NCBI GenBank assembly: GCA_002633005.1
Contig: NMRA01000302.1
Location: 126,180-190,179, forward strand
Source: Phoronis australis
Taxonomy: Eukaryota; Animalia; Phoronida
DNA length: 64,000 nucleotides
Direction of reading: 5' to 3'
This document shows positions 1 through 46,695 of the stretch, one piece after another (the first letter of the stretch is position 1; each line of letters begins with the position of its first letter). The position numbers and the translations under genes were made by a program. A model generated the notes under the pieces. It did no database searches. It was given only the letters and a program-made list of their open reading frames with translations, and was not told the origin of the DNA.

Positions 1-104
1 CATTTCTAGGGACACCAGAACAATTTTATATGATTATTGTTAGACAATATGCCATTTGGGCATTTTTGGTACATTGCAGTACAACGAAATAGACAACGAG
101 ACTG

Positions 105-3100
105 TCAATCATCACTGTCATCATCACTGTCACCATCATCATCACTGTCACCATTACCATGGTCACTATCATCACTGCAGTCACCACTTCCTGCACCGCT
201 TTTACTTCCACTGCCAGCCTTTTCCTCCTCACCACCACCAACGGCATTGTCACCCTCCTCCAGCATGTCGGCAAAGAACTCATTTTTATCACTCTTATTA
301 AGACTCTTATTTCTGTGAGCCTTCTTGGCTTTCCTGCTGGCGTCCACGCTCTGATTGGGCAGATCCTCAATATTCCAAAATTTAACCGTCTGATCATGTG
401 AACAACTTACGAGGAACTTGGAGTCATGGGATTTGCTCATGTTCTCCACAGGGAAGTCGCCGTGGCTACCGATGCTCCCCATGAATCTGTTTGGCAGGAT
501 GTTGACGGCACGGATGACACCATCCATGGAGCCGGTGCAGAGGATGTTCTCGGTGATGGGAACAATGCAGTCTATGGAGAGGGGGTGGCCAGGAAACCGG
601 TCGCTGATGTTTCCCCACTCGCTCCAGTTGAAAATGTTCAAGACACCGTCTCCACTGCCACACACAACTTTTGTCCCATCCTGTAATTACCAATGGAATG
701 AAGTAAAAGAAGGAAACAAGCCGGGCTATCTGGCAGCTTTAAAACAAAATATTAAATGCTGCTGAAAGATAAAGCTGTTTATCATGCTTTTCCATAAAAA
801 AGAAAAACAATGAATATAAGTACAGGAAGTACTTGCTTAACCAATTTCTTCTAGAACCACATATGCAAGTGCCAAATAAATTTTAAGGATAAAGTCACCT
901 CCTGATTGGCTGTCAGTGACTAAAAAGAAGTTATATCAGTGGCTCATATGCAACAGCGCCACCTTTAGTTACTGCTTATCAATTGCATTTTAGTGCTCAA
1001 ATCTATTCCTAGGGCATGTCAGCCTGCTATTATTAACAAACAAAAGAACAAGAGCAACACGGAGCACTGAAATGCGCCCACGAATGTATCGCAAATGGTG
1101 TGCTTTTAGGGTTATTTGCATCATAAAAATGGCCACTAGATGGCGCGTACAATCTGTCCACAAATGGGAACATGCCACATTTCATAAAACTCTGTCAAGA
1201 TCAGAGAAACAAAGAAAACAGAACAAAATGAAATTGCCACTACTGGGCACAGCATCCGTTCTATCTGCCTGAAAGTTGTCTGTTATCCTCATATAAATTC
1301 ACTTACTAAATTTAATAAAGATCCTGCAGTGGGTTTTGAAGATACAGCTGTGGGCGCAAAACAAAACAAAACTACCACTAGGAGGCGCCACAGTAGTCAA
1401 TCACCATTATCAAACGTCCTCTTCACACTGAAAACAGGTACGCCAATTTTCAAAACCACCCGTAGAATGATTTGGTTGATCGAGGAGTGGACGTCAAAAA
1501 CAAGATTTGAAAACGGCAAAAACGGCCACGAGGTGGCGCAAAATACCTCGATTCCATTCAAAAACAGGATGATAGCGTCATCTCACCAATAGATGCCTAC
1601 AATCAAAATTTTATGAAAATCTGTTGAGGACCTTTGAAGATAGAGACTGGTAAATATAAAACTAAAATTGCCACTAGGGGGCAGACCAGAAGTCAGATCC
1701 GTCCGAAAGTCGTCGTTGTCCATAGCCAACATCATATAAATACACTTCCTAAGTTAATTAAAGACCCTGCAAATGGTTTAATAGATACAGCCATGAGTGC
1801 AAAATCAACAAAACTGCCACTAGGAGGCGCCACAATAGTTGAACTCGGAAAATCGTCGTCAGCTGTCCGCTTCATAGTAAAATTAACATACATGCAAATT
1901 TCCACAATTATCCTGAAAGTCGTTTGGTTGACAGACGATTGGACGCCAAAAAACAGACTCGAAAACAGTAAAAATCATCCTTTAAGCAGTTTGGTAGGTA
2001 GAGGGTGGACGCAAAAAACAGTAAAAATGACCACTAGGTGGCACAAACTACGTCAAATCCATCCGAAAACGGGAGGATAGCATCACCTTCCTAATAGGTG
2101 CCTATATACCAAATTTTATGAAAATCCGTTCAGGACCTTTGAAGATACAGAGGTAAACGTGAAACACTAAAATTGCCACTAGGGGGCACACTGGTAGTCG
2201 GATCCGTCTGAAAGTTCGCTCATGCCGTCCCATACACAGAATAAACACATGTGCGAAATTTCATGAACATACGCAAAGACATTTTAGAGATAGAGCAGCA
2301 AACGCCAGACGGACGGACGCCCGTACGAACGGAGATGACGGCATAATGCGTCCACATATAAATATGTGGGCACACAAAAACGTCAATTTAAAAATTCTCG
2401 TAAATGTGGAATAATCTCCTGGACTGCTTGCAAATTGTCGTGTGGCAGTGCTAATTAGGTCATATAAACAGGTAGAGGTCTTCTTAGCCGCAAACAAATA
2501 TTTGTCTAATAGGAAAGCGTCACCTGATGTTCACTAAGTAAACTGAACATCCGGGTTTTGATCCAATGTCATTATCAGAATGATATCTGACGAGTACCTA
2601 GTCGGGCTTGCCCATCGCAGCCAACAGCCATGCAAGTAATCGGTGATGACTCTCAAAATCAATTCAAAATTGTGCCTCCAATCGGAAATAATGCATTCCT
2701 TTCTGAAAAAATTCTGACTCCGACAACTCTTCATAGAGCCACGGGTCATCGATTGCACCACTTATTGACCATACCTTCATCATAGCAAGTGACAGCTGCT
2801 CCGAGTCTAACAACTCTGACTGCATGTCCATCTTGTGCTTGCGAATGTTGAACGCCGTCAGCGTGCCATCACCACTTGTCGCCACCAATAGACGACCGGC
2901 ATCATTGACGAGCATGTCACTGATGAACTCTTCATTTTCCCTAACCTCCATCACTGTTTTCTTGAATCTCATGTCCCAGACCTACGTCAAAGGACAAAAG
3001 GTTCATACAAAATATGGTACAAAGCACCACTGGTTACTGATGCTATGGTTGGTGCATAGTCATTCGCACTTGCATGGTCATTGCTTAAGTTCAACAACAG

Positions 3101-4772
3101 AAGCCATTGGAAGGGTTGTTGAAATACTACTAAAATTGGCCTCAGTTTCACCTCCGTTGTGTCAGAAACTGGGATAAAACTTGCATGTAAATAACAGGAG
3201 ATTTAGAAGAAAGTTCTGTCACAATAAAACAGTCAATTATTTCACAAGGAGATCAAAAATAATAATTGCACGCTGTGTGACACGTTGTACCAGACATGGG
3301 CAGGGCCCTCAAATGGGCCCATTGCACTGATCAGCTGAAACCCTGGTTATCAGGGACGGATCCAGGATTTTGAATGGGGGGGGGCAGGGCAGAGTATTAG
3401 ACAGGATTTTAGCCGTGAGATATTCGCACCCCCAAACTGCCAAGTGAAATCTGGGAGAATTTTAGGGGGGTCATGGCCCCCTTCTAAATCCGCCACTGGT
3501 TATACCTTATTAAATAAATGTGTAGTTAAGATCGAGCTGAGGAGCTAGAGGCCTGACTCAAGTGTCTCACAGTGTGAACCAGAGATACTTGAACCCACGA
3601 CCTTGAACCCATGACCTTGAATATAGGAAACACTTATCTCACTAGGCCACACTGCCTCCTCTCACAAGGAGATATGATCATAATTTGTTTTAAAATGATA
3701 CCAATAGAAAGTTGCATGTAAATTGCTAAATGCAGTTTTAAAGCAGAAATTTTATGATTTATGCAATGTCAACCCTGTGTCCAGACCAAAAAACGCAAGA
3801 TCATGGAATACGTCACGAGATATCACCATGTACTACAACCGAGGCACATCGCACGAGTTAGATTCCTTCGAGATTCTCGAGTCTACAGAACTCAGGCCAA
3901 GGTAAAGTTAACATTTCCACATTTTATTTTCCAATTTCAAATTAAATCTGGGCGCACAGTCTGATTAGCATAGGATGTATAAAAAATAACAATGCTTTAC
4001 TTTCCAAAGAAATTTAGCACATGCACACACCACTTTTTGTTAAAATGAAGACTTTGGATGAGACAAACATGCATCCACGCCTGTTGAAGGAAATGGGTAA
4101 GTCCTCAGACATGAGAGAACTTTTGTTAAATAAAGACTCCATTATCACGAATGTTCTGCTACAGATTGCAAACACATACTATTTGACTAATTATGCGATT
4201 TGCAGCAAGTAATTCAAAGAATCACTGGCCCATCTCTATGGAAACTATTTACATGGACGAAAAAAATTCTCTGTTTGCATACTTGAACACAATGCCAACA
4301 ATTTCATGTTGTTTTCGAAAGTTAAAAAAATTTCATACAGCAAATCAAGTACTGAGAAACATCACGTGATCACTACACAACATACCTTCAAGTTACCATC
4401 ATCATCTCCCGTTGCTATGATGTTCTTGTCCACAGGAAGCAAGCAATAGATCGGAGATTCGTGCGCTTTCTTCAGTCTGTCCAGTACAGTGCCAGAGTTC
4501 AAATCGACCACGGCAAACGATTTGTCCTTCGAAGCTGTATACAGACACTCACCGTCGTCACTGAATCGCACGGCTCGGCAAGCTTTTTTATGATGTCCAA
4601 ATGACATCAGTTCATGATTGTCCTCTGAACAAGAGTACGAATGTATCGAAACATCGCCCTCGATGGTACCAACAGCGAGGACATCTTTGGATGGATGACA
4701 TTTCACGTCCACAACAAGTGTGTCAAAGGTCAAGTCTTTTGGTTTCTCCGCAGAAGAACACTTATTCGCCAT
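105..4772 (-). CDS. WDR55: WD repeat-containing protein 55 (ribosome biogenesis WD40 protein); 3 coding exons 4772-4386, 2981-2775, 680-105; ~389 aa with acidic C-terminal tail
   Basis: Exons join in frame at GT-AG sites (1170 nt). Peptides HHKKACRAVRFSDDGECLYTASKDKS, IATGDDDGNLKVWDMR, ATSGDGTLTAFNIRK, WGNISDRFPGHP and SCSHDQTVKFWN are typical of WDR55. The ATG is in strong context (aaaATGg). Confidence 0.93.
1047..2380 (-). mobile_element. Non-autonomous Helentron-type (HINE/DINE-1-like) element in WDR55 intron 2, with internal ~150-bp subrepeats
   Basis: Reverse-complement homolog of 53750-55255. It has a T-rich end with a subterminal inverted repeat (atgcgtccacat...atgtgggc), a GTCC-type microsatellite (gacggacggacg) and a CTTGT terminus. 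CCACTAGRNGGC motifs recur at 1133, 1375, 1526, 1671, 1817, 2031 and 2176. Confidence 0.7.
3351..3498. mobile_element. Short MITE with CAGGGACGGAT.../...ATCCGCCACTG termini
   Basis: Imperfect terminal inverted repeats with poly-G/poly-C subterminal tracts. GGTTAT occurs on both flanks. The terminus type matches 60819 and 63550. Confidence 0.55.
3535..3660 (-). mobile_element. tRNA-derived SINE head fragment
   Basis: The minus strand shows an A-box-like GTGGCCTAGTG and a duplicated B-box-like GGTTCAAG. No complete cloverleaf is present. Confidence 0.45.
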
Positions 4773-4841
4773 TTTCAATTTTTCCGTCACTTCTAGTCCA
4801 ACACTTTAAATAGTGCAAACAATGTGAAGAAGAGTCCAACT

Positions 4842-7800
4842 CTATAGTTTGCTTGTAATGCAGAGGTAAACCCCTATCAACACCAATAGCATGCCAAAAC
4901 AGGATTCTGAAAGGAGAATCAAAATAGGTCGAAATTTTCTTACAGAAAATAAAATGTGCGAGTTTTACCAAGATAAGAAACCAGGCATGGATCCAGAGAG
5001 GCCTGTATTCTCACTGCACTGCTACTTTTGTATTGATGATCAGGAGGAACAAAACAAAATGTATCCTCTTTTCATCTCCCTCTGTAATCAACTTGGCGGC
5101 AAAAATAACATGTGAAATCCATTGAAAAGGTACGAAAATATAAAGTACATTTAAGGTTGTAAATTTTCAACGTACTTCATATTCACATCATTGCATTATC
5201 TTGTGTTACTAATTCGGCCAAACAATAACAGAGATAAGGAATTAGCACGCAAGTTCCACTTTAAGGACAATAAATAGGACACTGCAAAAATGTCCAACTT
5301 TTGCAAATTTCGGAGCATCTCACCAAAATGGACGTTAAAATTAAAATAAACTTTTCAGATACCACGCTTTACGTACTGTTCTACAAAATGTTGTTTTTTT
5401 GCTAAATTTTACTAAAAAGACATAGCAACCTAACCAATCAGTAGGATATTGGCGTAGTCAAAAACCACCAAAATCTACGGGCTGTTTTCTTTCAGGAAGT
5501 ATATGATATTAAATACAAACACCAGTCAATAAATCTATTACTGGATTTACGGTACGTGGAGATGGCTACGTTGCGTCCTCCTCTCGAGGACTTCATCAGG
5601 CCACTGAGTTGTCACGTGACTTGTTATGTGATCTGTCGTATAGTTTCCGCGGGATTCTCTTCAGCGCCCTATCCCATGTCCTAGGTAAGTGAGAATCCCG
5701 CGGAAACTGTACGACAGATCACATGACAAGTCACGTGACAACTCAGTGGCCTGATGAAGTCCTCAAGAGGAGGACGCAACGTCGCCATCTCCACGTACCG
5801 TACGTCCAGTAATAGATTTATTGATTCTTATACTATGACCCAACTGGATGACTCAAAACATTCACTGTACAAACACCAGTCAATGATATTCTACATAACA
5901 ATAAAGCTGCTGCGTTTGCCCATTTTTTAGTTTTGAAAATCACTAGCAAAGTGTTTTAGTAAAATTGTACTTCCAGTATATTGCAGTTTATTATTTTTCT
6001 GGTCGTTAAAGTTGAATGGATCCAATCAACAATATTTGTAATATTTCAATCACCAACAGTTCAATTCAACGGGGAACAAAACGACATGCCTTGTGTCAAA
6101 CATAAATGTTTCAATCAGGCCAATTTCTGTACAGTTATAAACTCAGTCTCATTGTTTTCTGGTCTCGTATTAGAATTGATTTCAAGACTTGGGAAGAATC
6201 ATTATTGGTTCAGACTAGGGCCATTAACTTGCTCGTCATGGTGCGTTGGTTTCAGCACAGTGGCTGTTAGCTGAATTCCAGGGAAAACCAATTTCTATCA
6301 ATCGAACAAAAGCGATGCGAACATGACGACGGCGCTTTGGATTATCGAATAGGCAAGTGCTTTTAACACCAGAACTTGCTTTCTAGTGACTTCAAACAAA
6401 CCCCATCTCGTACCTTTGTTAATTTTCTCACCCAGCAGCAATCCACTGACAGAGGTGAAGATGAACGTCAGAGAGTTCGTTAGGGGTACGGCCAGCGATA
6501 TGTCTGGAAATGAACAGAAAAATGTGAAATAACTCAGTAGCATTTGAGCTAAATCTGCAGAGTTATTTTGTAAATTATAACAAAGCTACAGTTCTTGCCA
6601 CAGTCTCTCACTGATATCCAGACTGGTGACTTTACCCGATAAATAGGCTTAAAATTCTCTGTCTTTTATGACTTGTGATTTAGCACTGCCAGCACAGCAC
6701 TGAACTGTGACTGCGAGGATCCCAGGTTCGTCTGAACTCCACTTTCATTGCTGATAATACCCCTTTTAAGTCTTAAAAACTTTTTCAGGCAGATATCTAC
6801 TCACTCGCAGATGCTAGAGTTAAATAGTAGACAGACATCTACTCACCCGCAGATGCTACAGTTAAATAGTAGACAGATATCTACTCACCAGCAGATGCTA
6901 GAGTTAAATAGTAGACAACAGAGCCACTTTGATTTACCAGAAAAGGTAGCATATACTGAAATGAGACAACAACAACAACAACAACGGATGAGAACGGAGT
7001 GCTGAACTATTTCCACTTTAAAGAAAATCTCAAATCTTATTCACAAAAATTGGACATTTTTACAGTATTACAAACATGTCTACCAAAATACCTTCATCTT
7101 CTTATTTCTCAGCGAACTTCAAAAACGAAATATATACAGTGCAGCGAGAAAAAAGATTTAGTAGCACCACCTTGGAAGCACACAAACGACTTGTTAACAA
7201 AACTAAACTAAAAGACTCATCGAAATTCCTAACAGCATTTTTGAGATAACTGGTGAAGTTTTCATTAAAAATAAAAAAGTTTCACTAAAATCAACTGAGC
7301 TGTTATTTTGCTACGAATGCACCTTTCCTGAAAATGAAATTTCGACTTAAAAGGTGTTAACGTAATAACAATAATGGCACATAAAATATATTTTTATCAT
7401 CACTGATTTTTTTCTTTCACAAAACATAATACTTTTACTAGTTGACAAAGCCTGTTTTGATATATACGAGTTAGAATGAATGCTACTCAATAAGGGTTGA
7501 GATAACCTTAGTTAAAGTTGGTACAATACACAGTAACGAACATCAGCCTGTTCAGAAGTCCAAAGTTTGTCATTTCCAAGAGGAAAAGGTCCAAACTAAG
7601 TCAATGCAAAACACTTTGAGTCACCAGGTATTGAATATGATTTCCTTTGTTGCACTCACAGCTGAAAATAAGTTCTAACAAAGACTATGTTGAATTTTTT
7701 AAATCAAGTCATGACTTATCAAACCTTAGTGTCGGACACAAAATTGATTGATTTAAAGAACCATTTAACAGTTTCACCAGGACACCACAATCCAAAGATT

Positions 7801-10800
7801 CACCATCCTCACAAAAATTTATTCTGAAGGAGTTACAACACAGTTTATTAACTAAAAGTTTTTGTTAAAGCAAAATCCTCTCTTAAAGTGGGTCTGCTTG
7901 CCTGAGCAATACTATTATCATATCATCAATAATTAAATATGGAAATTACAAACATTTTGACTTTATTAATTGTAACGAATTTCAAAACTTTGTTGAAACT
8001 TCAAATATACTGTACAGTAAGTGGGCCTTCAAATTTTGAGTTAAAAAATTAATATAAAACAACAACAATGAAAAGAATAGATTATAGAAAATACAAAATT
8101 CCTAACAAAAATTCCAAAATTGTTTCAGTCTAAAATTTGTAAAAGGCAACAGCAGCTCACCTTCCAATTGAAAATCAAAAACTTCAGTTCACAGAAGAAC
8201 TGACAGATGGCAGACGCCTCCTTGATGTTCTCAATGCCTGCACTCCCCCGTTTGATGAATGGGTTGGTCCCGCCCCACAAGACAGCCACAACAGTTAACC
8301 AAAAACCTTGATCTAAAAAGACAAAATGGTCACTCTTTGAGAATTTACAGAACATTTACAGTTCAAAACCAAAGCAAAACAATAACAGTGTGAATACAAT
8401 ATCTGATTTTCTCTGGGAAATCGGAGTCATGAGTATTTGACATCTAGCAGATTGTGGTTAAAGTTTCAACAGGACTCATACGTGGTCGTCATGGCAATTC
8501 TCTCCATATGCTGGCGGCTGCCCTGTTGATGGCATCAACCACTGCGTTTCCTACACAGCCCCTTTCATGTTTTTGCACAATTGTTATACACCAATGAACT
8601 GCTACCTTGCCTCCATCAAACTGCTGCAATGGGAACTATTTTCACCAATATTCAAGGTGTATTTCACAGTGTTCTTTTGGTAACTGAAGTGATATTTTGT
8701 CTTTTTTATCTTTTATCTGGTATCAGGAAATGATTATAACAATGATTCCATGGAAAAATATGTGAAAGTTAGAATTGTCCATCTTATTACGAATAGCAAT
8801 CACAATTCAAAGCAGAATCAAGTTAATGCCATGTTATTATCGTACTTGACCACTCACGTGACCTCCAACCTGAATCTAATCTGACTTGGTAGCATCGCCT
8901 CCCAATGTCAGTGAAATTCCTACAGGTATCCTATTCCTTGGATTCCAAAATTCTAAGCATTCCTTCTTTACAATAGTGTGAAAGCTCCAACTAGCGCCAT
9001 CTTTGAAAACCGTTGTTTAGGTTCAAGTTTTGGAATGGAACCCTCCTTTATTTTATTTTTTTTAACACAGAGAACTGTTTAATCCCACACCATAACCACA
9101 GAGTCAATTAGTTCAACAGGAAGAGTCATCACCGCAAACAAGATTTATTCTAGTCTGAAGTTTCTGGCTTCACCTTGACCTAATTAACACTGTGACTGAG
9201 CGGAAGGAGACGATTAAGCGGTAACTAAAAAAAGCTTCCAAGATGGCCACTCATCATATTTGTTCGAGTTGGAAAGAGTTGAAAGCTTCCGAAAGTGTGC
9301 CTCTGTTGCAACCCTAACTGGTGCCTATACCAAACTGAAACTACGGGTAACTGTATGTTCTCAAATTACTATCAGTATTTTATAGGATTACTTAACAGTT
9401 ATCAGAAAAGAAATTGAATGCAATGAGTGTGGGGTGGTGCGTAATAGTTTATCAGGACACTTCCTACATGTGGTTAATCCATATAAGGATACGTGAGTAC
9501 TCTTTTTCGTCAATTATGGTTCTGATGAGCATTAAAAAATCCAAAAAATCATTGGCACTAACTTGGGAACTAATGGTAGCTTCAGTTTGGCACATGCATC
9601 AGTTTGGTTCACCAACCCATGATAGATTGATGTGCACCAAAGCAGTTTGGCGCAGGTATCAGACTGGGCTGCAACACCTCTGCGCTCAAATTTATACTTA
9701 AAGCTGCAGTTGAAGTTAATTTGATGGTTTAGCTAGTTTGAGGCGTAATTTGCTGAAGAGATTCCCCAAATTTTGGCTGGCATATGAGCTGACCAGTTTA
9801 CTCTAAGCTAGGTAATTACATCGCCCTGTAATGTAGGGACGTGACAAAAAAATTCAAATTCTTATTTAATATTTAAAAATGCATTGATTTAAAAAAACAT
9901 CAAAAACAGATTCAAACAAAAAAAATTAACAAAATCCGTTGAGCCGTTGACTTTTTATGAATGTTTGAAGAGCGATAATTAGCCTTTTTTTTAGTCCACT
10001 GAATACATGGGAATTAGAGGAATTTATGTGACCCAAAATTAGTTTTTTCACAATAACTTCCTCAATACTTTTAATAACAACATGAAAATTTCAGGATATG
10101 ACAATCCTAGCATTTACTTGGTGAGAAACATTTTTAAGACAACAAAAAATTCCAAATTCCAAAATGGCGGACAATATGGCCACCATTATGACTGCAAAAA
10201 CGTCTTATTGTTTTACGTTAATGAACTATATGGTGTAATATACCATTAACGAACTATATGGTGTAATATACCAAATGATAGGTCTTTTCATTGCTTTTTT
10301 GAAGAGAATGATGAAAAACATGTTCAGGCAATATTTTCGACATTTCCGCAATAGCTACCAAAATGGCTGCCAACATTACTGCGTTAACGACCACAAGAAG
10401 AGATTGATTCAGTAACCATGATGTACACGTAATATATGAATATTGAAGGTGTTTTTATGAACTGCAAGGATATCATACAATTGGGTTATGCATACATGTT
10501 TATTTTGTACAAAATGGCTGCCAAGATGGCTGCCACCCATAACAGAAAAGTAGTTGCAGTAATACAATTTTACAAGACAAATGAAACCAAAACGAGATTC
10601 GTTCAACTTTAACAACAAATTTTTGCTTGACCGCCAACAAGACTACCCAGAGGTTCAAAAGTCCATCTGTAACAAATACAAGGGCACACTAAGTGCATCG
10701 CACAGATACAAAGGATCGTCATTATTTTAATCCCACTAGGGGGTGCAATGCAGATGGAGCAAATGCACTAGAAAATTTAGGTAATGCAGAATACATCAAA

Positions 10801-13549
10801 TATGTCTGAAAATGGAAATGCATTGTAGTCTCCTTAATAGAAACCTAACTACCAAGTTTCATGAAAATCCATCAATGAACTCTAAAGATACACAAGAAAA
10901 CACACAAAAAAGTTGCCCTTGGGGGCACACAAACCGATTCCTTTTTTCTTTTGTTCAGTGGTAACTTTCTGGCGCTTTATCTGCTGTGTCAAATGTTTGA
11001 TCTGACATGCTTTTGCAGACTTCAGTGAAGACTTGAGATCATGAATGGTTTTCTTTTCCTTCGAAACATACTGTAGCCGTCTCTTTAGTTTTTGTTTCCT
11101 AGGTGTTAGGACTTCTCGCTAAGAGGATGGTGTTGAGGTGGATGGCTCTGATTCAACTGAAGGGCCAGCTTCAAGCTCTGGTTGTGTCAGCTCAGGAAAT
11201 ACAGGTTCATGGTGAGGGTCAGCAACTGCGCAAGACACAGGTTCTTCACTGGGTTCAGGAACGAGAGGAAACAACTCTTCGCACACTTTAAACTGGGACA
11301 TGCTTCTTTCATTTGAAACTGATACTCTTTAGTGACCTATTCACCAGCGAGTTGATATATTGCTTCTAGTCATTTTCCAATTACCAATAAGTTCACGCTT
11401 TAAAGTTGACACAATCTCAGTCAGTGATTTGTTGCACTGTAAGAACACAGGTATGACCATTTTTCATGTTTTCACTGGGAACAGAGTTGAAGTTCTCTTG
11501 CAGGAACTGTCTTGCTTTGCCAGATTGAGATAGAGCTGACAACTTTTTTGGAGGCATTCTGAAAATATAAAAAAGACATGTAAGAAAATTAACATACCAA
11601 TGTACAGTGTCATAATATATTTGTTGTACACCAAATGATTCAGACTGCTTTGTCCTGTAATTACTATTAAACACTCACTACGAACCCTAAAACTAAAGTT
11701 TGAATTTTTTTACACTGATGTGCAACAAAGTTAAAAGCATCCTACTTAGATGCGCAACACATAACAAAAAATTATACTTTTTATGAGGCACTGATTTATC
11801 ATTTTTCAAAAAATTGAACAGTTCCTTTCCTTAATAAGTGCACTTCAAGAACTTGAAAACTACAAATGTAAAATTCTCCAGTTGTGGACACAATATCATG
11901 TCAGGCCAGTGGAATTATATTTTGTCAAATACCTCAAGAAGGTAAAGGAATCGATGTACCTACTCAATGATTTTCCAGGCACCAACTTAACTTTTGAAAG
12001 AATGACAATATTAGCAACTATTGTTGTCTCAAACTGAAGAATTTTTTTAATGTGTTTGATTAGAAAATCATTACATGTTATTCAATGAAAAAATTAACAA
12101 AAGCACTGCTGTCTTATGGAATACACAAACTGTCATAAAAAACAGTAAAACATGGCAATATTGTGAAGAAAATCTAGCCAAAATCACACTTACCGGTAAA
12201 CATTGTCAAAGAATTCGGGTTTTGAGCCAATCAAATCTCTGGGATTTGATCACGTGACCAAAATTCGCCGGACCAAGATTACCTATACTACACCTTACAA
12301 AGTCATCGATATACAAAAAATACAAATGAAAATGTATGGAACTTCATCCAAATTGATCAATTCTGCTATTAATTTACATAAATTAGTCAATCTACCTAAT
12401 TTAAGAGCAATTGTTAACCATAAACGGCAATGCTGATACACTGGTCCGTAATGGCTGGTCAGCGAGAATGCCTGCCTCGGGTCTTAACTTTCACGGAGTT
12501 AGCAGATCATGATACGGTGATTTGATTGGAATGAAATTTGGTGAACAGTTGCAAAAGATATAAAAAAAGAAAACATATTACATTTCATAAGAATCAATGC
12601 CCTACCTTTCAAAATACAAGCTGTCAAACAGGAGCGAAAAATTCCCCAACTTCTCACCAGTCACATGCTTTAACAAGAATGTAAACACAACAAAGAAAAT
12701 GACGCATGCCTAGAAGAATTTACTGTCTACGTCATCAATAATGTGGTTCCCTGTTTTCTTGGTTTCTGGAGGAGAGAGAGTGGAAATACTATAGGCACCG
12801 TGAAACAATGGCTGTCTAATCGATAATCGCCATTACGCAACATTTGGGAAAATCCAATCAGCGTTGAGATACGACTTTGTCACGTCCCTACTGTAATGCC
12901 ACTGGTATGCAAGTCAAAGTAATTGCTCAGCTTATAGTAAGCATGCATATGTACATGTAGGTTATAATTAAAAATACCGTGACTCTGGGGACGATTTTGT
13001 CAACATAATTTAAACAAATCCCTGAAAACCTTTCGAGTTTCACTAGAGCACAGCTCCTCTCACCGGTTGCCATTTTGCGGAAATTACGTGAAATCATGGC
13101 AGTTGACAAGCAAAAAGTCCAAGGGACACAAATCTTACAACTTCCACTGGATTTCAACGCAATCTACATTTTGCAAATGTCGTGCACCAGGTCACGAGGT
13201 TTGTTCAATCTCACGCTTGTTGTTGCCTAACTCATGTGAAGTCAATTGAAATTCTCTGTGGTTTTCATACACGGTGAAAAAGTTAACAGCGACCAAAAAG
13301 TGCCAGGGGCTGGAATTCTTTGCCAAAGTCATCTCAATTCATGTGGACATGCTTCATCGAAGATATGTATAAAACCAGAAAGGATCGCTGAATGAAGAAA
13401 ATAAGTGCTTTTTCAAGTGACAATTAAGTGTAAAATATTTTTTTAACAAGCTGAAAAACCGCTTATCCTATGACCTATGCCCTATGGCTAGTACTACGTA
13501 GTATAGTCCGGTTACCTATTGTCGTCAGGCTCCAAAGGTCGTCCGCCAT
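4842..13549 (-). CDS. TMEM234: Transmembrane protein 234 (EamA/DMT-like); 5 exons 13549-13516, 8312-8161, 6955-6889, 6503-6414, 4906-4842; 135 aa
   Basis: The spliced CDS is 408 nt with consistent phases: MADDLWSLTTIDQGFWLTVVAVLWGGTNPFIKRG...[39 protein letters not shown]...GEKINKESCFGMLLVLIGVYLCITSKL*. It carries the TMEM234 motifs LWGGTNP, PFxxNQSGS, LAVPxxNSL and GMxLxxIGxxLCITS. Confidence 0.92.
5562..5604 (-). ncRNA. Minimal type-I hammerhead ribozyme motif, minus-strand copy (GUA cleavage triplet, variant G12-C13-A14 core)
   Basis: The reverse complement reads GTGGC CTGATGA A GTCCTC GAGAG GAGGAC GCAAC GTA GCCAT. Confidence 0.6.
5746..5788 (+). ncRNA. Minimal type-I hammerhead ribozyme motif (GUC cleavage triplet, variant G12-C13-A14 core)
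   Basis: GTGGC (stem I) CTGATGA A GTCCTC-AAGAG-GAGGAC (stem II) GCAAC GTC GCCAT (stem I'). The canonical core would read GAAAC. Confidence 0.65.
6791..6916. repeat. Three tandem copies of a 42-bp unit spanning the 3' end and donor site of TMEM234 exon 3
   Basis: Unit AGATATCTACTCACCAGCAGATGCTAGAGTTAAATAGTAGAC repeated 3x with a few substitutions. Confidence 0.9.
9834..12890. mobile_element. hAT-superfamily DNA transposon (~3.06 kb, non-autonomous/degraded) in TMEM234 intron 1
   Basis: Perfect 15-bp TIRs TAGGGACGTGACAAA (9834-9848) / TTTGTCACGTCCCTA (12876-12890). The 8-bp TSD CTGTAATG lies at 9826-9833 and 12891-12898. An interrupted minus-strand ORF remnant occupies ~10930-11560. Confidence 0.88.
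10636..10930 (-). mobile_element. Nested HINE-like fragment inside the hAT element
   Basis: Begins AACAAG and contains CCCACTAGGGGGTGC and ACCAAGTTTCATGAAAATCC, similar to the 1047-2380 element. Confidence 0.4.
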
Positions 13550-14300
13550 CTTGTTTCGCGTGCAGCGCAACCACGCGGGACTTAGCGTTCCAATTTGGAG
13601 TGCTCGTCTGCACGTTAGGTACTAACCTCTCGGGAGAAACACGCATAGAAAAAGTGAGACTAAAATTAGTGCATTTACCGACTGTTTTTTTGAGACCACT
13701 TAAAAACTTGTCGATTTTACTAATGCACTTTTTTGTTCATTTTCAGAAGATATTTTCGAAATTAAATTTTCTTCAGACGGAACAAAAAGCAACTCAGGGA
13801 TTGTCTATGCAATGTATCTATTTGTCCCAGGCACTAACCGACACCTGNAAACTTCCGAATCGATGAATGCGGTATATCTGTGAGAGTTAAATCGAATCCT
13901 ATTCAGATCATAACTTTGAAGTGGAATAATTCGGTGAGTACAACAGCAAGTCGGTTTTATGCTTAGGCGGACGACCATTGGGTTCCCGAGTATAGTATAG
14001 TAATGAACTTACACAAGTCGGTCATTACAAGCGATAGTTCGCTGGGGTTACAAATTCTATATGAACCATAAGCACCCGAATCTTGCAATGCCTCACAAAC
14101 TGATGACAACAAAGGAGACACAGCGTTGGCGTCAGAGGTGGAAACGAGGAGCAGATAAACTCTAGAGCTTGTGATTTGAACAAAACGTGAATCACAAGGG
14201 AGCAGACATCTTGAAAACACATGCGCGATAGGCAATTTGATAGAGACTTCCGGTCGTGGTTCATTTGCCGGGAAGACAGTTGTTCACATATTTCTGTAAA
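13550..14300. promoter_or_regulatory. Bidirectional promoter region of TMEM234(-) / eIF3i(+)
   Basis: The divergent ATGs are ~750 bp apart. An ETS-type ACTTCCGG lies near 14247, and a YY1-type AAGATGGCGG overlaps the TMEM234 ATG. Confidence 0.65.
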
Positions 14301-17300
14301 ATGGTGAGAGTTTAGAGTACAGTAATCATTCGTGTTTATGATTATAGTCCTTAGATACTTTGTGCCATTGATTTTAGCTAATTTGTCGCCTCTGACTTGA
14401 AATTAGTATGTAAAATTTACATAATGTGGTTGACGTTAGCCATCCATCTAACTTCGTACCATCCAACCAGGCGAGGCTTATCATGAATATGAAGGACCCA
14501 TGAGGCTAGGATGACTTGAGCTGAGTGCACCTCTTCCCTTCAGTGTGTGGTTACTGTCGCCATCGGAGCTTATTTCCATGCCTGTGCTGTATACCATATG
14601 AGTAAGGGCTCGGGCAACAAGCAGGTAAATCGGATAGGTGAATCCCGCTTTGCCCTTCAAATGGAGAGTAATAAACAAAGTGTAGCGTAAACAACATTTC
14701 TTCTTTTTCAGAAACCCCTTATGTTACACGGGCATGAAAGGTCCATAACACAGATCAAGTACAGTCGAGAGGGGGACCTTCTGTTCTCATCGGCAAAAGA
14801 TCAAGAACCCAACGTCTGGTATTCATTAAATGGTGAACGATTAGGCACCTTCCGAGGACACAGTGGGGCTGTGTGGACATTAGATGTCAACTGTATCCTT
14901 GGCAAAAGTCGTTTTTCTGATTACCGTATGCAGTTGGGTTGATATCGGCTAAATCACAATCAAGGTCCATATTCGAGAGTTGACTGTGTTACGGTCTAAA
15001 ATAATTTTTTTTGGTCACTTACCTAATGCCAACTGAACCTCATATGCAAAGAGGTATTTAGTTGTGCAAATTAAAAAAGAATCATCAAAATTTGACAATG
15101 TTTTTGTCTGTGAATTTCATGCATTTTTAGCGTTACGAGTGGCCATTTTAAAAATTACAATTTTCAATTGTCAGCAGTAGAAATGAAATTTTTTATCAAG
15201 TAAGCAATTGCTTAGATATGACTGGGAACAACTTGAGTCACTTTTAGAATCACTTAGATGAAGTTGTGCTTAAACATTGAGAAATGGGTTCATCATAAAA
15301 CAGGCACTCGTTACGAAATTTGTAAATTCTGTTTTTCTAACCCTCACCTACTGTAAAGACGGTTAAAAACTAAAGTTCAAACTCTGTCATACAAAGAACT
15401 GCAGAATATGTTAGCCTAGGCAACACAGCAAATTACTCAATATCTAAATCAAAATCTGGATATTGACTGGGTTCTGCTATGTTGAAAATGGGCCAAAAAG
15501 GCTAACAAAATGTAGTGTACATACCCCCATGTGGAATTCAGTAACACAAATGGTCATTGCAAATGAAATTATTGCCTTTTAAATAACAACATGGTGCTTA
15601 TTTTCATCAAAGAAAATAAATGGCCATACAACATTATGTTACCATGTGATGCAGAAACAGTGATGTAGTGTACGTACCTCCCTTGTAGTGTACGTACCCC
15701 TATGTTTACAAATGCCATGCAATTAAAATATCACTGGGTAAGTGAGCAACACTGGTCATAGACAGTTTCCTTCCTTAAAATTGTTAGGTTAAAAGAGTGT
15801 TGTTTGTCAATACATTTGTTTTGAGTGAAATATTAGCATTTGTGTACTGAAAGTACCCCCATATTTTAATTTGTGCCTATTTTCAAAGTATGGCAGATAT
15901 GCACACGAATGCTGTCCTTTTTATTTTTGCTCTTTGAATTGATTTAGTAAATCAACTAACTCTCAGTAGATTCTTAGTATTTAGTTACAAACTTGACATG
16001 TCATTGAAATTACATAACTCTGTGTAGTGTACGTACCCCGATGTGAACAAATGCCGTGAAACAAAAATATTATACCGTATATAAGCAACATTTGTCAAAG
16101 ACAGTTTCATTCATTAAAAATGCTCAGTTAAAAGGGTTTTAATTACAAATACATTTGTTTTGAGTGAAGTATTAGCATTTGTGTAGTGTACGTACCCGTA
16201 TATTTTAACATGTGCTTGTTTTCAAAGAATGACAGACAGATATGCACATGTGTGCTGTGCTTTTTATTTGTTCTATTTGAATAGATTTGGTAAATGAACT
16301 AACTCTCATTAGATTCTAAGTATTTTTTATAAACCTGACAAATCATAGACATGTAGTGTATGTACCCCTGTGTAGTGTACGTACCCTCAACCTCTATGAT
16401 ATAAAGTATTGCCCACAAGTATGTTTATATACTGCTGTTCTCATGAACAATACTGATATTTCCTAAATGAATACAGTCTGACAAAAAAAAACAATGGACA
16501 TTATCAAATTTTTGGGCAATAAAATGCCACACAGGACTTGGCTAGTACTTCACATCCTAGAAGACAACGTCATGTGACAACTGATGTTGCAGAGGCAGGT
16601 TCTCTATCTCTCAAGACAACTTGCAACAAACCAACCAGTACTAGTAGAAGCAGCTCAAAACTCAAGACCATCCCATACAATTGTAACTTAGTCAAAATTT
16701 GAAGTTGATTGACTGTGTAGTGTACGTACCCCCCAACCAGTACCATTTTTTTACTATTTACAAGTGGAAAAGTGGGCCTAGCATTGCTTTAACAATTTTA
16801 ACTAACTGGTGATTGTATTGAAAACTAGGCAAATAGCACCAATAAAGTTTTTGAAAAAAGTAGTAACTTGTCATTTACTTTTTGTAAGAACATATTGCAA
16901 GAGAGGAAGTTCTCATTATACTGTGTTAAGATTATGTAATGTGTCATCATCTAGAACAACTTGATCAGCACGGTAATAACTTTTCTTACTTTAGTATGGG
17001 ATACTTCTTCAATTTGATCAAGAACTTGTTAAATTAACAGCTACCTTATGAATTTTTGCATGGTAGAAGTTGGCTGTGACCATAAGTTGTAGTGTACGTA
17101 CCCTTTTGTACAACTGTGATGCATTAGGCCATAAAATTTTATTCGGTGGTTCTTGTGCAAAAATGTTTTAGATTACAAACCTGGAATGATGGTACTTTAA
17201 AATAACCCAGCTTTTACAGTTTCATGACAATCTTTTTATGCAACGGTCCCTAAAATTTAGGGACGTCCCTAAAATTTAGGGACGTCCCTAAGACTTAAGG

Positions 17301-25920: not shown

Positions 25921-28900
25921 TTATTTCCTTTTGTCCGGTGTTTTGCCCGATACTTTTCGGCTGGAGTCCTTTCTCTTGTCCTTGTTCACAGCTAGTGGTG
26001 TTTTGGTCGAGAACCGTGGTGGCGGACCTGGGACAGCAATAGAGTTCTCACAAACACTAATACAAAATATGTGAAGTAACATCATACTGCAAAGTGTTCT
26101 TTTTGTCGTCTCAATTATACGGCAAGATTAACATCGAAAGTCTGCCGGTGTGTGCTTAGTGTGCTAAAAACAAATACGGTAAGGTTTATTATGTATTGGC
26201 TCTTAGCAGCTGGAATGCAAATGAATCACTCGTGAAAACCATGTTCAGAGCAAAGAGCTCGCAATTTTTAATTAGCGGGCAACCTGCAAACCTTTCCCGA
26301 CAGGTACTGTCGGTTAAAACAGTACGATGACTCGCATACAGTATAAGACGAAGTATTTGGACAAAATACCGTATCCCCGTCATGACGACTAACTCTTTAA
26401 AAAGCAAAAGTGACCGGCAATAACTATTTGGGCGTTCTAATTCTAATAACTATTTGGGCGTTCTAATTCTAATAACTATTTGGGCGTTCTAATTCTAATA
26501 ACAGAATAGGGAAACTACTCTGACGAGGAATTTTGACTTCTGCTCAGCTGTCATGACAAGGCATTCTGGGTAATTTTGTTTGAGTAATAGTTATGGTGTG
26601 TACTCACAGTGGGTCGAATACACCTAAACAGCAAGATTTTATTTTTTTAAGATGAAATTGAACTTATCTGAAGGTCTTTATAGTGCAAAATCATACGGTG
26701 GACTTTTATCTGAGTTATAGAGTGTAGGATATATGTGGGCACGGTTGTATCCAGCCTGCCTACCTAGTTCAGTAGGCCTTGGTAGTGAGACCATGTCTAG
26801 CTTGATGTCTAGCTCATCTCTTGTGTCGTCTATGATAGCATTCAAGTCATCGGTGACTGACGAGACGTGCTTGTCTAATACTTGTTTCATGATCTTGATG
26901 AATTCCTGTTTTAAGACATAAAATATAGGGGTTAATAGTAACAATCTCACCATTTTTGTCAAAATTTATTGCAAAAGTCATCCTTTTTTGTTTTTAAGAG
27001 CTTTTAACATCATTGTGAAAGTCAATTAACATAAATTATAGTAGTTTGTTTTAATCATTCACGGAATTTATCCACCATTAGCAAAGTGCTCATTACGAAA
27101 GATTGTGCAAAACTGAATACTTCTCTATCTATCTGCCTGTCAGGCCCCTCTTCCTCAACAGATGTCTCCACCAGTTGGTCAATGGTTTCCTTCTTGGACT
27201 GCAATCTCTCCTCTACAGCCACCATCTTTTCTCCCTCCCTCTGCTCTATCTCCTTATACTTCTGATGGTATTCCCAGATGTGGTTTGGCGTGGCTGAACT
27301 AAGTTTCTCCGGAGGTACACATAGGTGAATGTCTAACTCTGTGTGCGGACTGAACACTTCTCGATCTTGGGTCATCACAAACTGGTATAGCTTAAAGTGT
27401 TTCATGTATGTCATAAAAAAGTACTCGGTGAGCATCTTGAGATTGGCTTCTCCAAATATGGTGGCGTACTGTGCGACTTTGTCTCTGTAAATTCTTATAG
27501 CTTCTGGTAAAGTAACACCTACAAACAGCAACACGAATTTACAAAAATAAAAAATCATTGGCAAAAAAATGACTATATGAAATAACAAATGGGAAGTATG
27601 TTTTAAACAACAATGATTGTCTAAATGCTGACAATAAAATTTTTGCCACATTTAAGTGCCAAGTAGATCACAATATTTCATAATCTTAAGAAAATTAACA
27701 TCAGTCACCAAAGGCCATTTAAAATCTGTTGACTTATACATCCATAAAGCGGCAAGTTAGTGGATGTGAGTCGAGATTTTTGGCTGGTAAGTCATGTGTT
27801 GTAAGTAGGGCATGAGTCGGTGAACAGAGTTTATAGCTGGGGAGCACTTGAACAGTACATGTTCATAAGTGAAGTATTAAGAATAAGTCTGCAAGCCATG
27901 TTGTTCAGGGATACTACATGGGCGGCCCAGCATTGAAAAAAGTGGGGGCTATAACCCCCCAGACCCCTATGGTGTGCCCCCCCCCCCTTTCGTGAACAAT
28001 TGAAAAAGACTCCTTAAATTTACACTATTACACACTACACTCATGGATGGAATGGAATGGACTGCTTCTTGTCAAGTTTTATTACTATCTGCCAACCTTG
28101 TGTTTCCAGTTGTATTTCAGCAGCCACTTGCAAAGCAGAGCACACTTGATTCCAGGGAAATCCTTTGTTTGATGCAAAAACTAAAATATCGTAGTAATAG
28201 TCCAACAACACACTCTGTCTCATCTCGCTGCCTTCATCGATTTCGCTCCAATTGAGAAATTTCTGCAGCTTCCGTCTCCCTTCACCTTTCTGTGAAAAGA
28301 AAAAGAGTAATTGGTGTTGTGTGTAATAAGAGATACATGTAGATTGATTGGTTGCAAATTTCATTGAAAAAAAGCATTAGAGTATATACATGCAAAGGCA
28401 TATATGGATGACACCAAAAATTCTAGTATCTTACTTATCCTGTAGTCCTCAAGTGAAGTACAAAATAAGATTAAATAAATTACACTTTTACAAACAATAA
28501 CAGTTGACAAAATGAAGTAAAGTTGAAGAACTACATTTCAGTATTGGAGATGGATAAAGATTGGCTGCCAAAAGTGGTCAAATGTGGATCTAGTTTACTA
28601 TAGCTTTCATAGGTATTTTTACAACGACCATGATGGGTTTTACGATGCTGAAAGTTCATGGAGAACAAGAAATTATGCGATAGTTAACTGGTCTGAGATT
28701 TGCATGAGTTCGGGAAGTCTGGCTTTAAGAAAAACAGTGTTTACATATGACTCATTGTGGAAGGTAGCAAATGTACTCGTTGACAGACTGGAAAAGATCA
28801 ATGGCTCATCATGCAATCTCACTATTTAGCCTGTATGCTTGAAGGGGATATGACGTCATATCTCCTGTCAAGAGTGGTGTAAAAATACCCAGCTGCTGAT

Positions 28901-34742: not shown

Positions 34743-36068
34743 AATACGAAAGGTCGTGTACAACTTTTCCAACTTGTTGCTTCCTACTTGACTGGAATCT
34801 TCCAAGAAAAAGACGTCACTGACGCAAAGGATTATGGGATAGCAATCCTCCAAAGCAGCACGGCTGGTAGGCAATGACCATCGCCTATGTTGGCCCGAAC
34901 CAGAGTATACTATCCCACAAATCTCTCGGGCATGCGCGCACATCAGTCCCTTTAAGAACTAGGTCAACGTTAGAGGGCAGTCACACAAGGAAGTTGAACA
35001 TTTGAAGTTAACTTGTGATGAATGAACTATGCAATTTACATAACGTAAAATTGCCGCGAGGACTTGACAGGGACTTCAGGGGTCACACACTCCACTGATT
35101 TATCCACATTATTTTGAAAACGCTTGGTCCAGTCACACATTGTGTGTCATAAAAGAGATAAGCATACCAAGTAGAACTACTCTCGTTTATCACATTGGTG
35201 TAGACTCACAGTTGAACTGCATGTGGTTTTCTGTAGTGAAGTACGGCGAATAGTGTCATCCTTAGGAAAGCGATGCAAGGTACCCAAAGCGCGTGTAAGA
35301 CGATAATGAGAACATCCTGGTACGCGGCAACAGCGTGGAATGTTGACTGACTCGTAAATAAAAGCAAACGACGACCAACTTATGTCAGCCGAGGTAGAAC
35401 AATTTGACTGAATTGACAGCTCTCACAGTCTGACGTGCTGTATGAACAGAAATTGGCGCAAAATTCTTGCCTCCCAAATCGTCACTTCCGGAGTAGAGGA
35501 CGAGAAATTAATTAAATTACGAAAAGCTGTAATTCAGTGAAAAATATGTCTGGGATACTCAACAGACCTTATTTTTGCTAAACGTGACATGAAAAAAGGT
35601 TGCCTTCGCCTTTAAAATCATGTCACAGTATATTTTACGGAGGGATGTGACCTTAAAGTTTGGTTCTAACCCGGCTTCAGTAAATGAAAGTTTAGGCCCT
35701 TCTACCAGGTACGTGCGGTAATTTTCTAAAAAGTATTCTCGTGTATTTGCGTGGCCACGTAGCAGTGTAGACCCGTGCATGTATATGTTATTACTTTTTT
35801 CATTGATTTTACAATAACTTATTAATGTTCTATGTTCACTGTAGCGCAACGTTATTTGAAATTCTTAGTAGAATGTTATATGCATGCATACAGGTGTACC
35901 TATACCTGTGAAATAAAATTAATGAAAAGTTTACGCCTTGTAAAAAACCCAGTCCAATACTTCGTGTTATCGACATCATACTGTGCGTTGTACAATGGTT
36001 CCGGTCTTGGAGGACTGTCCCACTTGTTAAATTTTCCCACCATCAAATTGTCCCCTTTTCACACCGTC

Positions 36069-45735: not shown

Positions 45736-46695
45736 AGCTTTGCAAATTTTAAGGCGTATTTGCAAGTTACTGTGTGATTACGACTTATGTTTCAGACGTA
45801 GTCACTGACAGTGACGAAAAGAAAGATTACGTGAGTGTTCACAATGAAAAATACTGAAACTGCTTTGAGATACAAGTCGAAATCGTCACATTCGACACGA
45901 TGTCCGGTCTGACGGGTTTTAAAAATGGTGGACGAATGAAGTCTTTTTAGGGGTCTTAGGAGTTGTTCAGTTATGATAATCTAAGTAAAACGTTTATTTT
46001 AGATCCCTGTAAGTTAGTAGATACGACATAATAAAGTTATCACAATGTATAATTACTAGTAATATGAACCACTGCCGCAATCAGTGCCAGCCAAACATTT
46101 CGAACCCGACGTCTGAACAGAACAATTCAACACATCGCAGTTTAAAATACCAAAACAAGCTAGTAAATTGTGTTAGCCTGCGGTGAGTAATAGAATGGAT
46201 TATGCTGTCTAATTTTAACTTTCAAATTAATTGTGAGTTTCTTCAATTTTATTGATGTTGTACAAGCAGTGTGTGTGGATTGGCCAGCCAGCTAGCTGAA
46301 TATTTACATAAAGCGTAAGTTTTTTGACACGTCTTCCCGTTATTTTGTGCTTTTATAATTTATATGAAGTCCGGGGTATTTCTGGAAAAGCTCCCATATC
46401 TATCTTTCGTGGTGTGGCAGGGAAGCCTGTACATGACTCACAGTTCTTGTGTGTTCCTAGAAAGTGCACACCCATGGGCATCAGGTAATGAATGAATTTC
46501 ACATTTTACCGACGCTTGCATACATAAATTTTTTAAAATTAAATAAAAACAAATTGGCCTAACACATTTTTAGCCGTGGACGAACATGTTTATTTTTTAG
46601 ATGTTGCCTTAACAGTAACATACGTGAGCGATAAAAGGAATCACGTGTGACCTAAGAATCACAATGATGTTCGATGTTTCAGAGTATATGCAAAC

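What the first reader, a model, noticed from the sequence alone, without database searches (positions are those of the whole stretch)
4770..4906. TMEM234 and WDR55 appear to share one transcription unit (candidate dicistronic mRNA)
Seen: the final TMEM234 coding exon (4906-4842, ESCFGMLLVLIGVYLCITSKL-TAG) is followed on the same strand by the WDR55 ATG (4772) after only 69 nt. The gap has no AATAAA/ATTAAA, no ATG and no room for a normal 3' UTR plus promoter. The ORFs share a frame but an extra TAA intervenes, so single readthrough cannot fuse them. A cryptic acceptor (ACTAG|AA, exon start 4792) is phase 1, matching the TMEM234 donors at 13516, 6889 and 6414, so alternative splicing could give in-frame WDR55 with a TMEM234-derived N-terminus. 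Inference: WDR55 is expressed from the TMEM234/eIF3i promoter by reinitiation or leaky scanning, by alternative or trans-splicing, or from a promoter inside TMEM234 intron 4. This would couple a ribosome-biogenesis factor to eIF3i. I know of no described TMEM234-WDR55 bicistron.
Basis: partly seen in the sequence, partly recalled or inferred. Interest (0 to 1): 0.8.

Follow-up and report, generated by a model that had tools for sequence, protein, structure and literature searches.

The report
Two genes sharing one spliced exon
In this invertebrate, RNA reads show that the end of a small membrane-protein gene (TMEM234) and the start of an unrelated gene (WDR55) lie 69 bases apart in one continuously transcribed, spliced exon, so one messenger RNA likely carries both proteins; two-gene messages are known in flies and humans, but this pair appears undescribed and likely arose in this lineage.

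Summary
Observation confirmed: 69 nt, no ATG and no A[AT]TAAA between the TMEM234 stop and the WDR55 ATG. Stranded RNA-seq from three runs with the same species label covers 4906-4386 without a break. Depth is zero in the flanking intron bins examined. The only loose ends are the splices to TMEM234 exon 4 and WDR55 exon 2. No read group supports the 4792 cryptic acceptor, a spliced leader, a poly(A) tail or stop-codon editing. Junction reads are 116 (TMEM234) versus 115 (WDR55). So one 521-nt exon carries both reading frames, and most WDR55 RNA likely lies behind TMEM234. How WDR55 is translated is untested. Leaky scanning plus reinitiation fits: there are no out-of-frame AUGs and the gap is unstructured. 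Against it, the first AUG is strong, depth rises 1.4-fold into a CpG-rich WDR55 exon, and a minor own-promoter mRNA (0-40%) is not excluded. No long read links both full ORFs. The pair is on different contigs in 20 of 21 other animals. Verdict: new, likely lineage-restricted member of a known kind (animal dicistronic mRNA).

The parts
13516..13549 (-). TMEM234 coding exon 1 (predicted): ATG at 13549 in a TISU-like context (11 of 12 positions), phase-1 donor
   Evidence: sequence; TISU consensus; splice joint not among the rows shown
8161..8312 (-). TMEM234 exon 2
   Evidence: Pfam PF10639; homologues; minus-strand RNA depth
6889..6955 (-). TMEM234 exon 3; starts with the internal in-frame Met64 codon (CDS offset 189) nearby, weak context
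   Evidence: joint 6503/6889 in 27, 23 and 19 reads
6414..6503 (-). TMEM234 exon 4
   Evidence: loose ends at 4908 read exon-4 sequence in 19, 21 and 7 reads
4386..4906 (-). Shared 521-nt exon: last 65 coding nt of TMEM234, 69-nt gap, first 387 coding nt of WDR55
   Evidence: continuous stranded depth in 3 of 3 runs, zero in the flanking intron bins
4842..4906 (-). TMEM234 C-terminal coding segment; holds the last in-frame AUG, which opens a 16-codon mini-ORF ending at the same stop
4773..4841 (-). Intercistronic gap: 69 nt, AUG-free, no stable fold (z -0.61), second in-frame stop, no UGGGA; motif GAAGTGACG resembles an ETS/CRE promoter element (resemblance recalled)
4386..4772 (-). WDR55 first coding segment; strong start context (A at -3, G at +4); CpG o/e 1.04
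   Evidence: Pfam PF24796
2775..2981 (-). WDR55 coding exon 2
   Evidence: loose ends at 4384 in 19, 28 and 9 reads; joint to exon 3 in 20, 17 and 22 reads
105..680 (-). WDR55 last coding segment with acidic tail; the 3' end of the mRNA was not located (only 104 nt of UTR lie in the window)
14301..14303 (+). Predicted eIF3i ATG followed by a GT donor; head-to-head neighbour of TMEM234
   Evidence: sequence; Pfam EIF3I on ORFs at 14691 and 22754

Best explanation
TMEM234 and WDR55 share one transcribed, spliced exon, and the locus likely makes one dicistronic mRNA (135-codon TMEM234, 69-nt gap, 389-codon WDR55) from which WDR55 is likely translated by ribosomes that scan past the TMEM234 start. 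Shown: the shared exon, its splices on both sides, similar RNA levels for both genes, and no leader, cryptic splice or poly(A) read group. Inferred: the full-length molecule, the start at the TMEM234 promoter, and translation of the second ORF. Only three AUGs precede WDR55, all in the TMEM234 frame and all ending at the same stop. A scanning subunit that misses the first either passes the weak second and moderate third, or translates the 16-codon mini-ORF from the third and reinitiates across the unstructured 69-nt gap. A minor WDR55-only mRNA may coexist.
For: Depth is continuous across the gap in 3 of 3 runs (gap bins 28.8/29, 19.5/15.7, 11.9/11.7) and 0 at 4926-5100 and 4351-4375. Of 107 partly fitting reads, 103 are the two splice ends. 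Junction reads WDR55/TMEM234 are 115/116, ratio 0.99 (0.77-1.28; upper bound 1.43 if mates are not independent). Overlap models that keep poly(A) tails predict 20-25 or 33-70 tail-clipped reads; none was listed, and no 3'-end pile-up either. Out-of-frame AUGs in the TMEM234 CDS: 0 against 1.72 expected (P 0.12); together with the AUG-free gap P is about 0.03. Gap fold z -0.61. Sizes match green-algal leaky-scanning bicistrons (ORF1 median 291-357 nt, ORF2 1113-1185, gap 40-183; PMC11892635 section 6) and Drosophila dicistronic-only loci (-34 to 319 nt). The TMEM234 stop has two spliced introns behind it, yet the RNA is as abundant as WDR55 RNA; translation of the second ORF would explain escape from junction-dependent decay (idea in the PMC3951408 abstract; whether decay depends on junctions in this animal is unknown).
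Against: No long read or read pair was seen linking TMEM234 exon 4 to WDR55 exon 2; reads are 151 nt. The TMEM234 AUG matches TISU at 11 of 12 positions, a context that resists leaky scanning in mammalian assays, whereas algal first ORFs have weak contexts. Pooled depth rises from about 58 in the gap to about 100 at 4450-4525; the ratio 1.39 (runs 1.10, 1.42, 2.12) exceeds the 97.5th percentile of a single-mRNA simulation, 1.26. A model with 35-40% of WDR55 RNA starting in the gap fits the depth best under one library model (rms 0.07 against 0.20); under another, 20% fits only slightly better (0.17 against 0.22). Overlap models without visible tails fit the depth equally well (rms 0.066). WDR55 exon 1 is CpG-richer than TMEM234 exons 2-5 plus gap (21 of 80 C against 8 of 85, P 0.007). 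The AUG depletion in the CDS alone is not significant. No conservation was found.
Confidence: 0.55

Rival explanations
1. The long mRNA exists, but WDR55 is only its 3' UTR. WDR55 protein comes from a shorter capped mRNA made from WDR55's own promoter inside exon 5 or the gap, with a very short leader.
For: Depth rises 1.39-fold into WDR55 exon 1 and a 20-40% internal start fits better than none. CpG-rich WDR55 exon 1. The motif AA[ACG]ATGGCG occurs 5 times in the window, two of them at these two ATGs; YY1 acts through the related TISU element. In Drosophila 69 of 159 dicistronic loci have one gene with an extra monocistronic transcript.
Against: Junction reads are equal. No 5'-end pile-up in the gap and no step in depth: 56-61 across 4726-4825, then a slow rise; the only pile-ups are at 4616 and 4680, inside the CDS and different between runs. 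An internal share of 70% or more fits badly. 3' and GC bias, which were not modelled, could produce the slope.
Confidence: 0.28
2. Two separate, overlapping monocistronic mRNAs: TMEM234 ends at a non-canonical poly(A) site in the gap or inside WDR55 exon 1, and WDR55 starts in exon 5 or the gap.
For: With free end points, and tail-bearing reads assumed lost, such models fit the depth as well as any (rms 0.066). Variant hexamers exist at 4810, 4766, 4592 and 4472.
Against: No canonical signal in the exon. At most 4 of 107 partly fitting reads are unexplained, against 20-70 tail-clipped reads predicted, and there is no 3'-end pile-up. It needs matched abundance in three runs. A clean break in the gap is rejected. 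Caveat: the reads look trimmed and the tool skips some repeats, so poly(A) clips may be hidden.
Confidence: 0.1
3. The pair is an operon resolved by spliced-leader trans-splicing, or WDR55 is made by alternative splicing to the AG at 4792, or the ORFs are fused by double stop-codon readthrough.
For: The gap is short and U-rich, and the 4792 acceptor is in frame.
Against: No loose end at 4792 or anywhere in the gap at a 2% threshold with 3 or more reads, and no depth step. Weak pyrimidine tract. Two stops, unedited in RNA. No fused TMEM234-WDR55 protein among the 100 WDR55 hits of 336-2000 aa or the 10 hits of 89-2000 aa for TMEM234 exon 2. About 18-19% of each run was read, so rare forms can be missed.
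Confidence: 0.05

Closest known systems
Drosophila dicistronic loci (159 pairs in FlyBase 6.04; PMC4528330, section 6 read whole)
   Same: Two unrelated genes on one processed mRNA without a spliced leader; gap within the -34 to 319 nt range of dicistronic-only loci; a possible extra monocistronic form for the downstream gene.
   Different: Different genes and a different animal group. No spanning cDNA or start-site map here. TMEM234, WDR55 and two recalled, unverified fly gene ids were not found in the paper's 11 readable supplements.
Green-algal bicistrons translated by leaky scanning (PMC11892635, abstract and section 6)
   Same: Short first ORF (408 nt), long second ORF (1170 nt), short gap (69 nt), few AUGs before ORF2.
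   Different: The first AUG here is strong and TISU-like, not weak; no conservation was found; no ribosome or mutational data.
Human bicistronic mRNAs such as MIURF-MIEF1, PYURF-PIGY, ASDURF-ASNSD1 and STREMI-SLC35A4 (PMC13303939 passages)
   Same: A conserved small protein is encoded upstream of a larger conserved protein on one mRNA.
   Different: Here the first cistron is a 135-codon, five-exon gene that stands apart from WDR55 in other animals, so the pairing looks recent.
Viral TURBS termination-reinitiation (PMC10275272 section 13)
   Same: Downstream ORF shortly after a long ORF.
   Different: TURBS needs stop and start within about 20-30 nt; here 69 nt and no UGGGA (motif recalled).

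Membership tests
Animal dicistronic mRNA locus | Two separate, intact, conserved ORFs on the same strand | tested here: met
Animal dicistronic mRNA locus | Stop of ORF1 and start of ORF2 lie in one continuously transcribed, processed exon | tested here: met
   3 of 3 runs
Animal dicistronic mRNA locus | Single molecules span both complete ORFs | tested here: inconclusive
   short reads only; junction counts and the absence of end signals favour it
Animal dicistronic mRNA locus | Both proteins are translated from that mRNA | not testable with these tools
   needs ribosome profiling or reporters
Leaky-scanning bicistron (green-algal type) | Few AUGs before ORF2 | tested here: inconclusive
   0 out-of-frame against 1.72 expected, P 0.12; with the gap about 0.03; two internal in-frame AUGs
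Leaky-scanning bicistron (green-algal type) | Weak start context at ORF1 | tested here: not met
   A at -3, G at +4, TISU 11 of 12; exon 1 itself is predicted
SL-resolved operon | Spliced leader on the downstream gene at an intercistronic acceptor | tested here: not met
   no loose end in the gap; rare forms could be missed
TURBS termination-reinitiation | Stop and start within about 30 nt, with an 18S-complementary motif | tested here: not met
   69 nt; no UGGGA
Stop-codon readthrough fusion | One open frame after a single stop | tested here: not met
   two in-frame stops, unedited in RNA
Ancient conserved dicistron | Same pairing in other lineages | tested here: not met

The most novel reading that the evidence does not exclude
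A young dicistron caught in the making: in this lineage WDR55 landed directly behind the stop codon of TMEM234, replaced its 3' UTR and poly(A) site, and is now translated from the same leaderless-spliced mRNA despite a strong first AUG, while relics of its old promoter persist in the gap. With a second such locus noted in the same genome (unchecked note e1-10593768), this animal may build two-protein mRNAs routinely and use an unusually efficient reinitiation route.
Probability: 0.25. Interest if true: 0.72.

Novelty: new member of a known kind. Interest (0 to 1): 0.48.

Why it matters
Outside flies, mammals and SL-splicing animals, I found no paper on processed two-protein mRNAs in this part of the animal tree (one search listed none). 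This is an RNA-backed case in an invertebrate that likely is a lophotrochozoan. The genes are apart in 20 of 21 other animals tested, so comparing near relatives could show how a dicistron is born. The locus also gives a clean test of how a housekeeping gene is translated behind a 135-codon ORF with a strong start, and of how an mRNA with two introns behind its first stop avoids decay. Gene annotation would tend to lose or mis-join one of the two genes.

Tried and rejected
No whole genome is held. No RNA holder was listed by the word index; X1-X4 came by species label. X4 had no depth over the shared exon and gave nothing. The WDR55 tree did not place the animal: quick tree only, no starred group holds it, nearest rows Lingula, an unnamed row and Lineus; it lies outside the starred hemichordate-echinoderm group. 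TMEM234 is closest to Solemya and Patella (72%, 71%), so 'likely lophotrochozoan' is as far as it goes. The out-of-frame AUG null used one ORF on the wrong strand; one search is the corrected figure. A synonymous permutation within WDR55 did not show excess CpG in exon 1 (21 against 22.2, P 0.70); the contrast holds only against TMEM234 exons and WDR55 exon 3. Fewer variants in exon 5 plus gap (0 of 8 sites) is not significant (P about 0.09 by hand). One unnamed TMEM234 and one unnamed WDR55 hit share a contig length of 1173, too short to hold both, so coincidence. No Rfam match in 1-16000; no stable fold or IRES-like structure in the gap. PMC7986045 had no passage on lophotrochozoans, and one search listed nothing useful on spliced leaders. 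Earlier findings on this pair or look-alike stretches: none.
Full report
Observation. On the minus strand TMEM234 has five coding exons (13549-13516, 8312-8161, 6955-6889, 6503-6414, 4906-4842; 135 codons) and WDR55 three (4772-4386, 2981-2775, 680-105; 389 codons). The gap is 69 nt, has no ATG and no A[AT]TAAA, and holds a second in-frame stop. Pfam and named homologues confirm both genes. The WDR55 ATG aligns with the first residue of scallop WDR55. An empty 69-nt stretch is common by itself (216 of 927 tiles).

RNA. Three stranded paired-end runs with the same species label were laid, about 18-19% of each; they come from one study. Over 4351-5100, depth runs without a break from the acceptor at 4906 to the donor at 4386 in 3 of 3 runs, all on the expected strand. 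It is zero at 4926-5100 and 4351-4375. Only two loose-end sites were listed: 4908, reading TMEM234 exon 4 (19, 21, 7 reads), and 4384, reading WDR55 exon 2 (19, 28, 9). These are 103 of the 107 partly fitting reads. Nothing was listed at 4792, no foreign leader, no poly(A), and no base change at either stop. The exon-4-spliced reads have median loose lengths of 51-58 nt, so half of them run to about 4812 or further, past the TMEM234 stop. Single reads covering both stop and start should number about 25-30 by arithmetic from the depth table, but the tool does not list them one by one. Joint counts were 27, 23, 19 for TMEM234 exons 3-4 and 20, 17, 22 for WDR55 exons 2-3. Summed with the loose ends this is 116 against 115, ratio 0.99 (0.77-1.28).

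What depth can and cannot settle. A clean break in the gap predicts gap/exon-5 depth of 0.10 (0.05-0.19); observed is 0.98. Against a pure single mRNA, pooled depth climbs slowly from about 58 to about 100 within the exon (ratio 1.39; simulation 0.77-1.26). With uniform fragment starts, a 35-40% internal start fits best, and overlapping monocistronic models fit as well if tail-bearing reads are lost. With fragmentation then size selection, the best internal share is about 20%, barely better than none, and overlap models fit worse and predict 33-70 tail-clipped reads. No such reads and no 3'-end pile-up were seen, though trimming could hide tails. So most WDR55 RNA likely lies behind TMEM234, a minority form of 0-40% is open, and no read seen here links both full ORFs.

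Translation. Between the TMEM234 AUG and the WDR55 AUG there are only two other AUGs, both in the TMEM234 frame: one in a weak context and one in a moderate context that opens 16 codons ending at the same stop. Out-of-frame AUGs are 0 against 1.72 expected (P 0.12; about 0.03 with the gap). Three methionines is the median for the family, so these are not special. The gap does not fold more than shuffles. The reinitiation review gives 79-140 nt and 39-42 nt as preferred distances in two mRNAs, and under about 30 nt for TURBS (PMC10275272, passages and section 13). That short ORFs reinitiate better than long ones is partly in those passages and partly recalled. The best-fitting route is leaky scanning, aided by reinitiation after the mini-ORF. 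Its weak point is the first AUG, which matches TISU at 11 of 12 positions; TISU resists leaky scanning in mammalian assays (PMC3177215 passages). The main rival is a short WDR55 mRNA from a promoter in exon 5 or the gap: WDR55 exon 1 is CpG-rich against TMEM234 exons 2-5 (P 0.007; not so against a within-gene permutation), and the gap ends in ETS/CRE-like and YY1-like motifs (the ETS/CRE resemblance is recalled). These could also be relics of a recent move.

Conservation. The proxy is rough: clusters can pool assemblies, and the Nematostella pair probably does. No annelid or nemertean had both genes listed, so near relatives are untested. None of 79 metagenome WDR55 loci carried TMEM234 (121 queries; the same queries found four TMEM234 exons in the window), but those loci are mostly distant and many are short. 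No fused protein was found. TMEM234 sits head-to-head with eIF3i here and in human (PMC5930751 passage), so WDR55 is likely the newcomer. The animal could not be placed beyond 'likely lophotrochozoan'.

Known kinds. Drosophila has 159 dicistronic pairs, 45 dicistronic-only, and 69 in which one gene also has a monocistronic form (PMC4528330 section 6). Human has at least 14 well-supported cases (PMC13303939 passages). Green algae use leaky scanning with similar sizes (PMC11892635 abstract and section 6). Searches for TMEM234 with WDR55 and TMEM234 with bicistronic returned 0 papers; searches listed none on this pair; most subscription journals are not in the library. The role of WDR55 in ribosome biogenesis is recalled, not taken from a call.

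Verdict. The feature is real and backed by RNA. It is a new, probably lineage-restricted member of a known kind. Functional dicistronic translation about 0.55, own-promoter supply about 0.28, overlapping mRNAs about 0.10, splicing or readthrough routes about 0.05. Interest 0.48.

Noticed in passing
window 8313-9660, minus strand (TMEM234 intron 1): Strand-specific RNA depth (pooled about 10 in bin 8741-9200) with no second copy in the window, a consensus donor at 8857 and a YY1-like ATG motif at 9003. It could be a second first exon that omits the TMEM234 start; none of its 7 ATGs reads into the TMEM234 frame without a stop. It could also be reads from a repeat elsewhere.
   Followed up: partly
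window 6790-6900: The end of TMEM234 exon 3 with its GT donor is repeated head to tail about three times (unit about 46 nt, seen by eye); the joint shown in RNA uses the first donor at 6889.
   Followed up: partly
window 11558-12606: A spliced joint with CT..AC ends in 21, 31 and 74 reads inside TMEM234 intron 1, in a stretch whose reads carry many indels; probably a repeat expressed from other copies. No Pfam match for the ORF there.
   Followed up: partly
window 5520-5830: Inverted-repeat, MITE-like element in TMEM234 intron 4, seen by eye, with reads on both strands.
   Followed up: no
window 13614-13860: Repeat-like coverage and one N between the TMEM234 and eIF3i starts, so a single shared promoter is not certain.
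   Followed up: no
window 32274-34958, minus strand: Uninterrupted 894-codon ORF with TPR repeats.
   Followed up: partly
window 27055-28376 (minus), 46651-52224 (plus), 57077-58333 (plus): A CLAMP-domain gene, a CDC20/Fizzy gene, and a 418-codon membrane-protein-like ORF without a Pfam match.
   Followed up: partly
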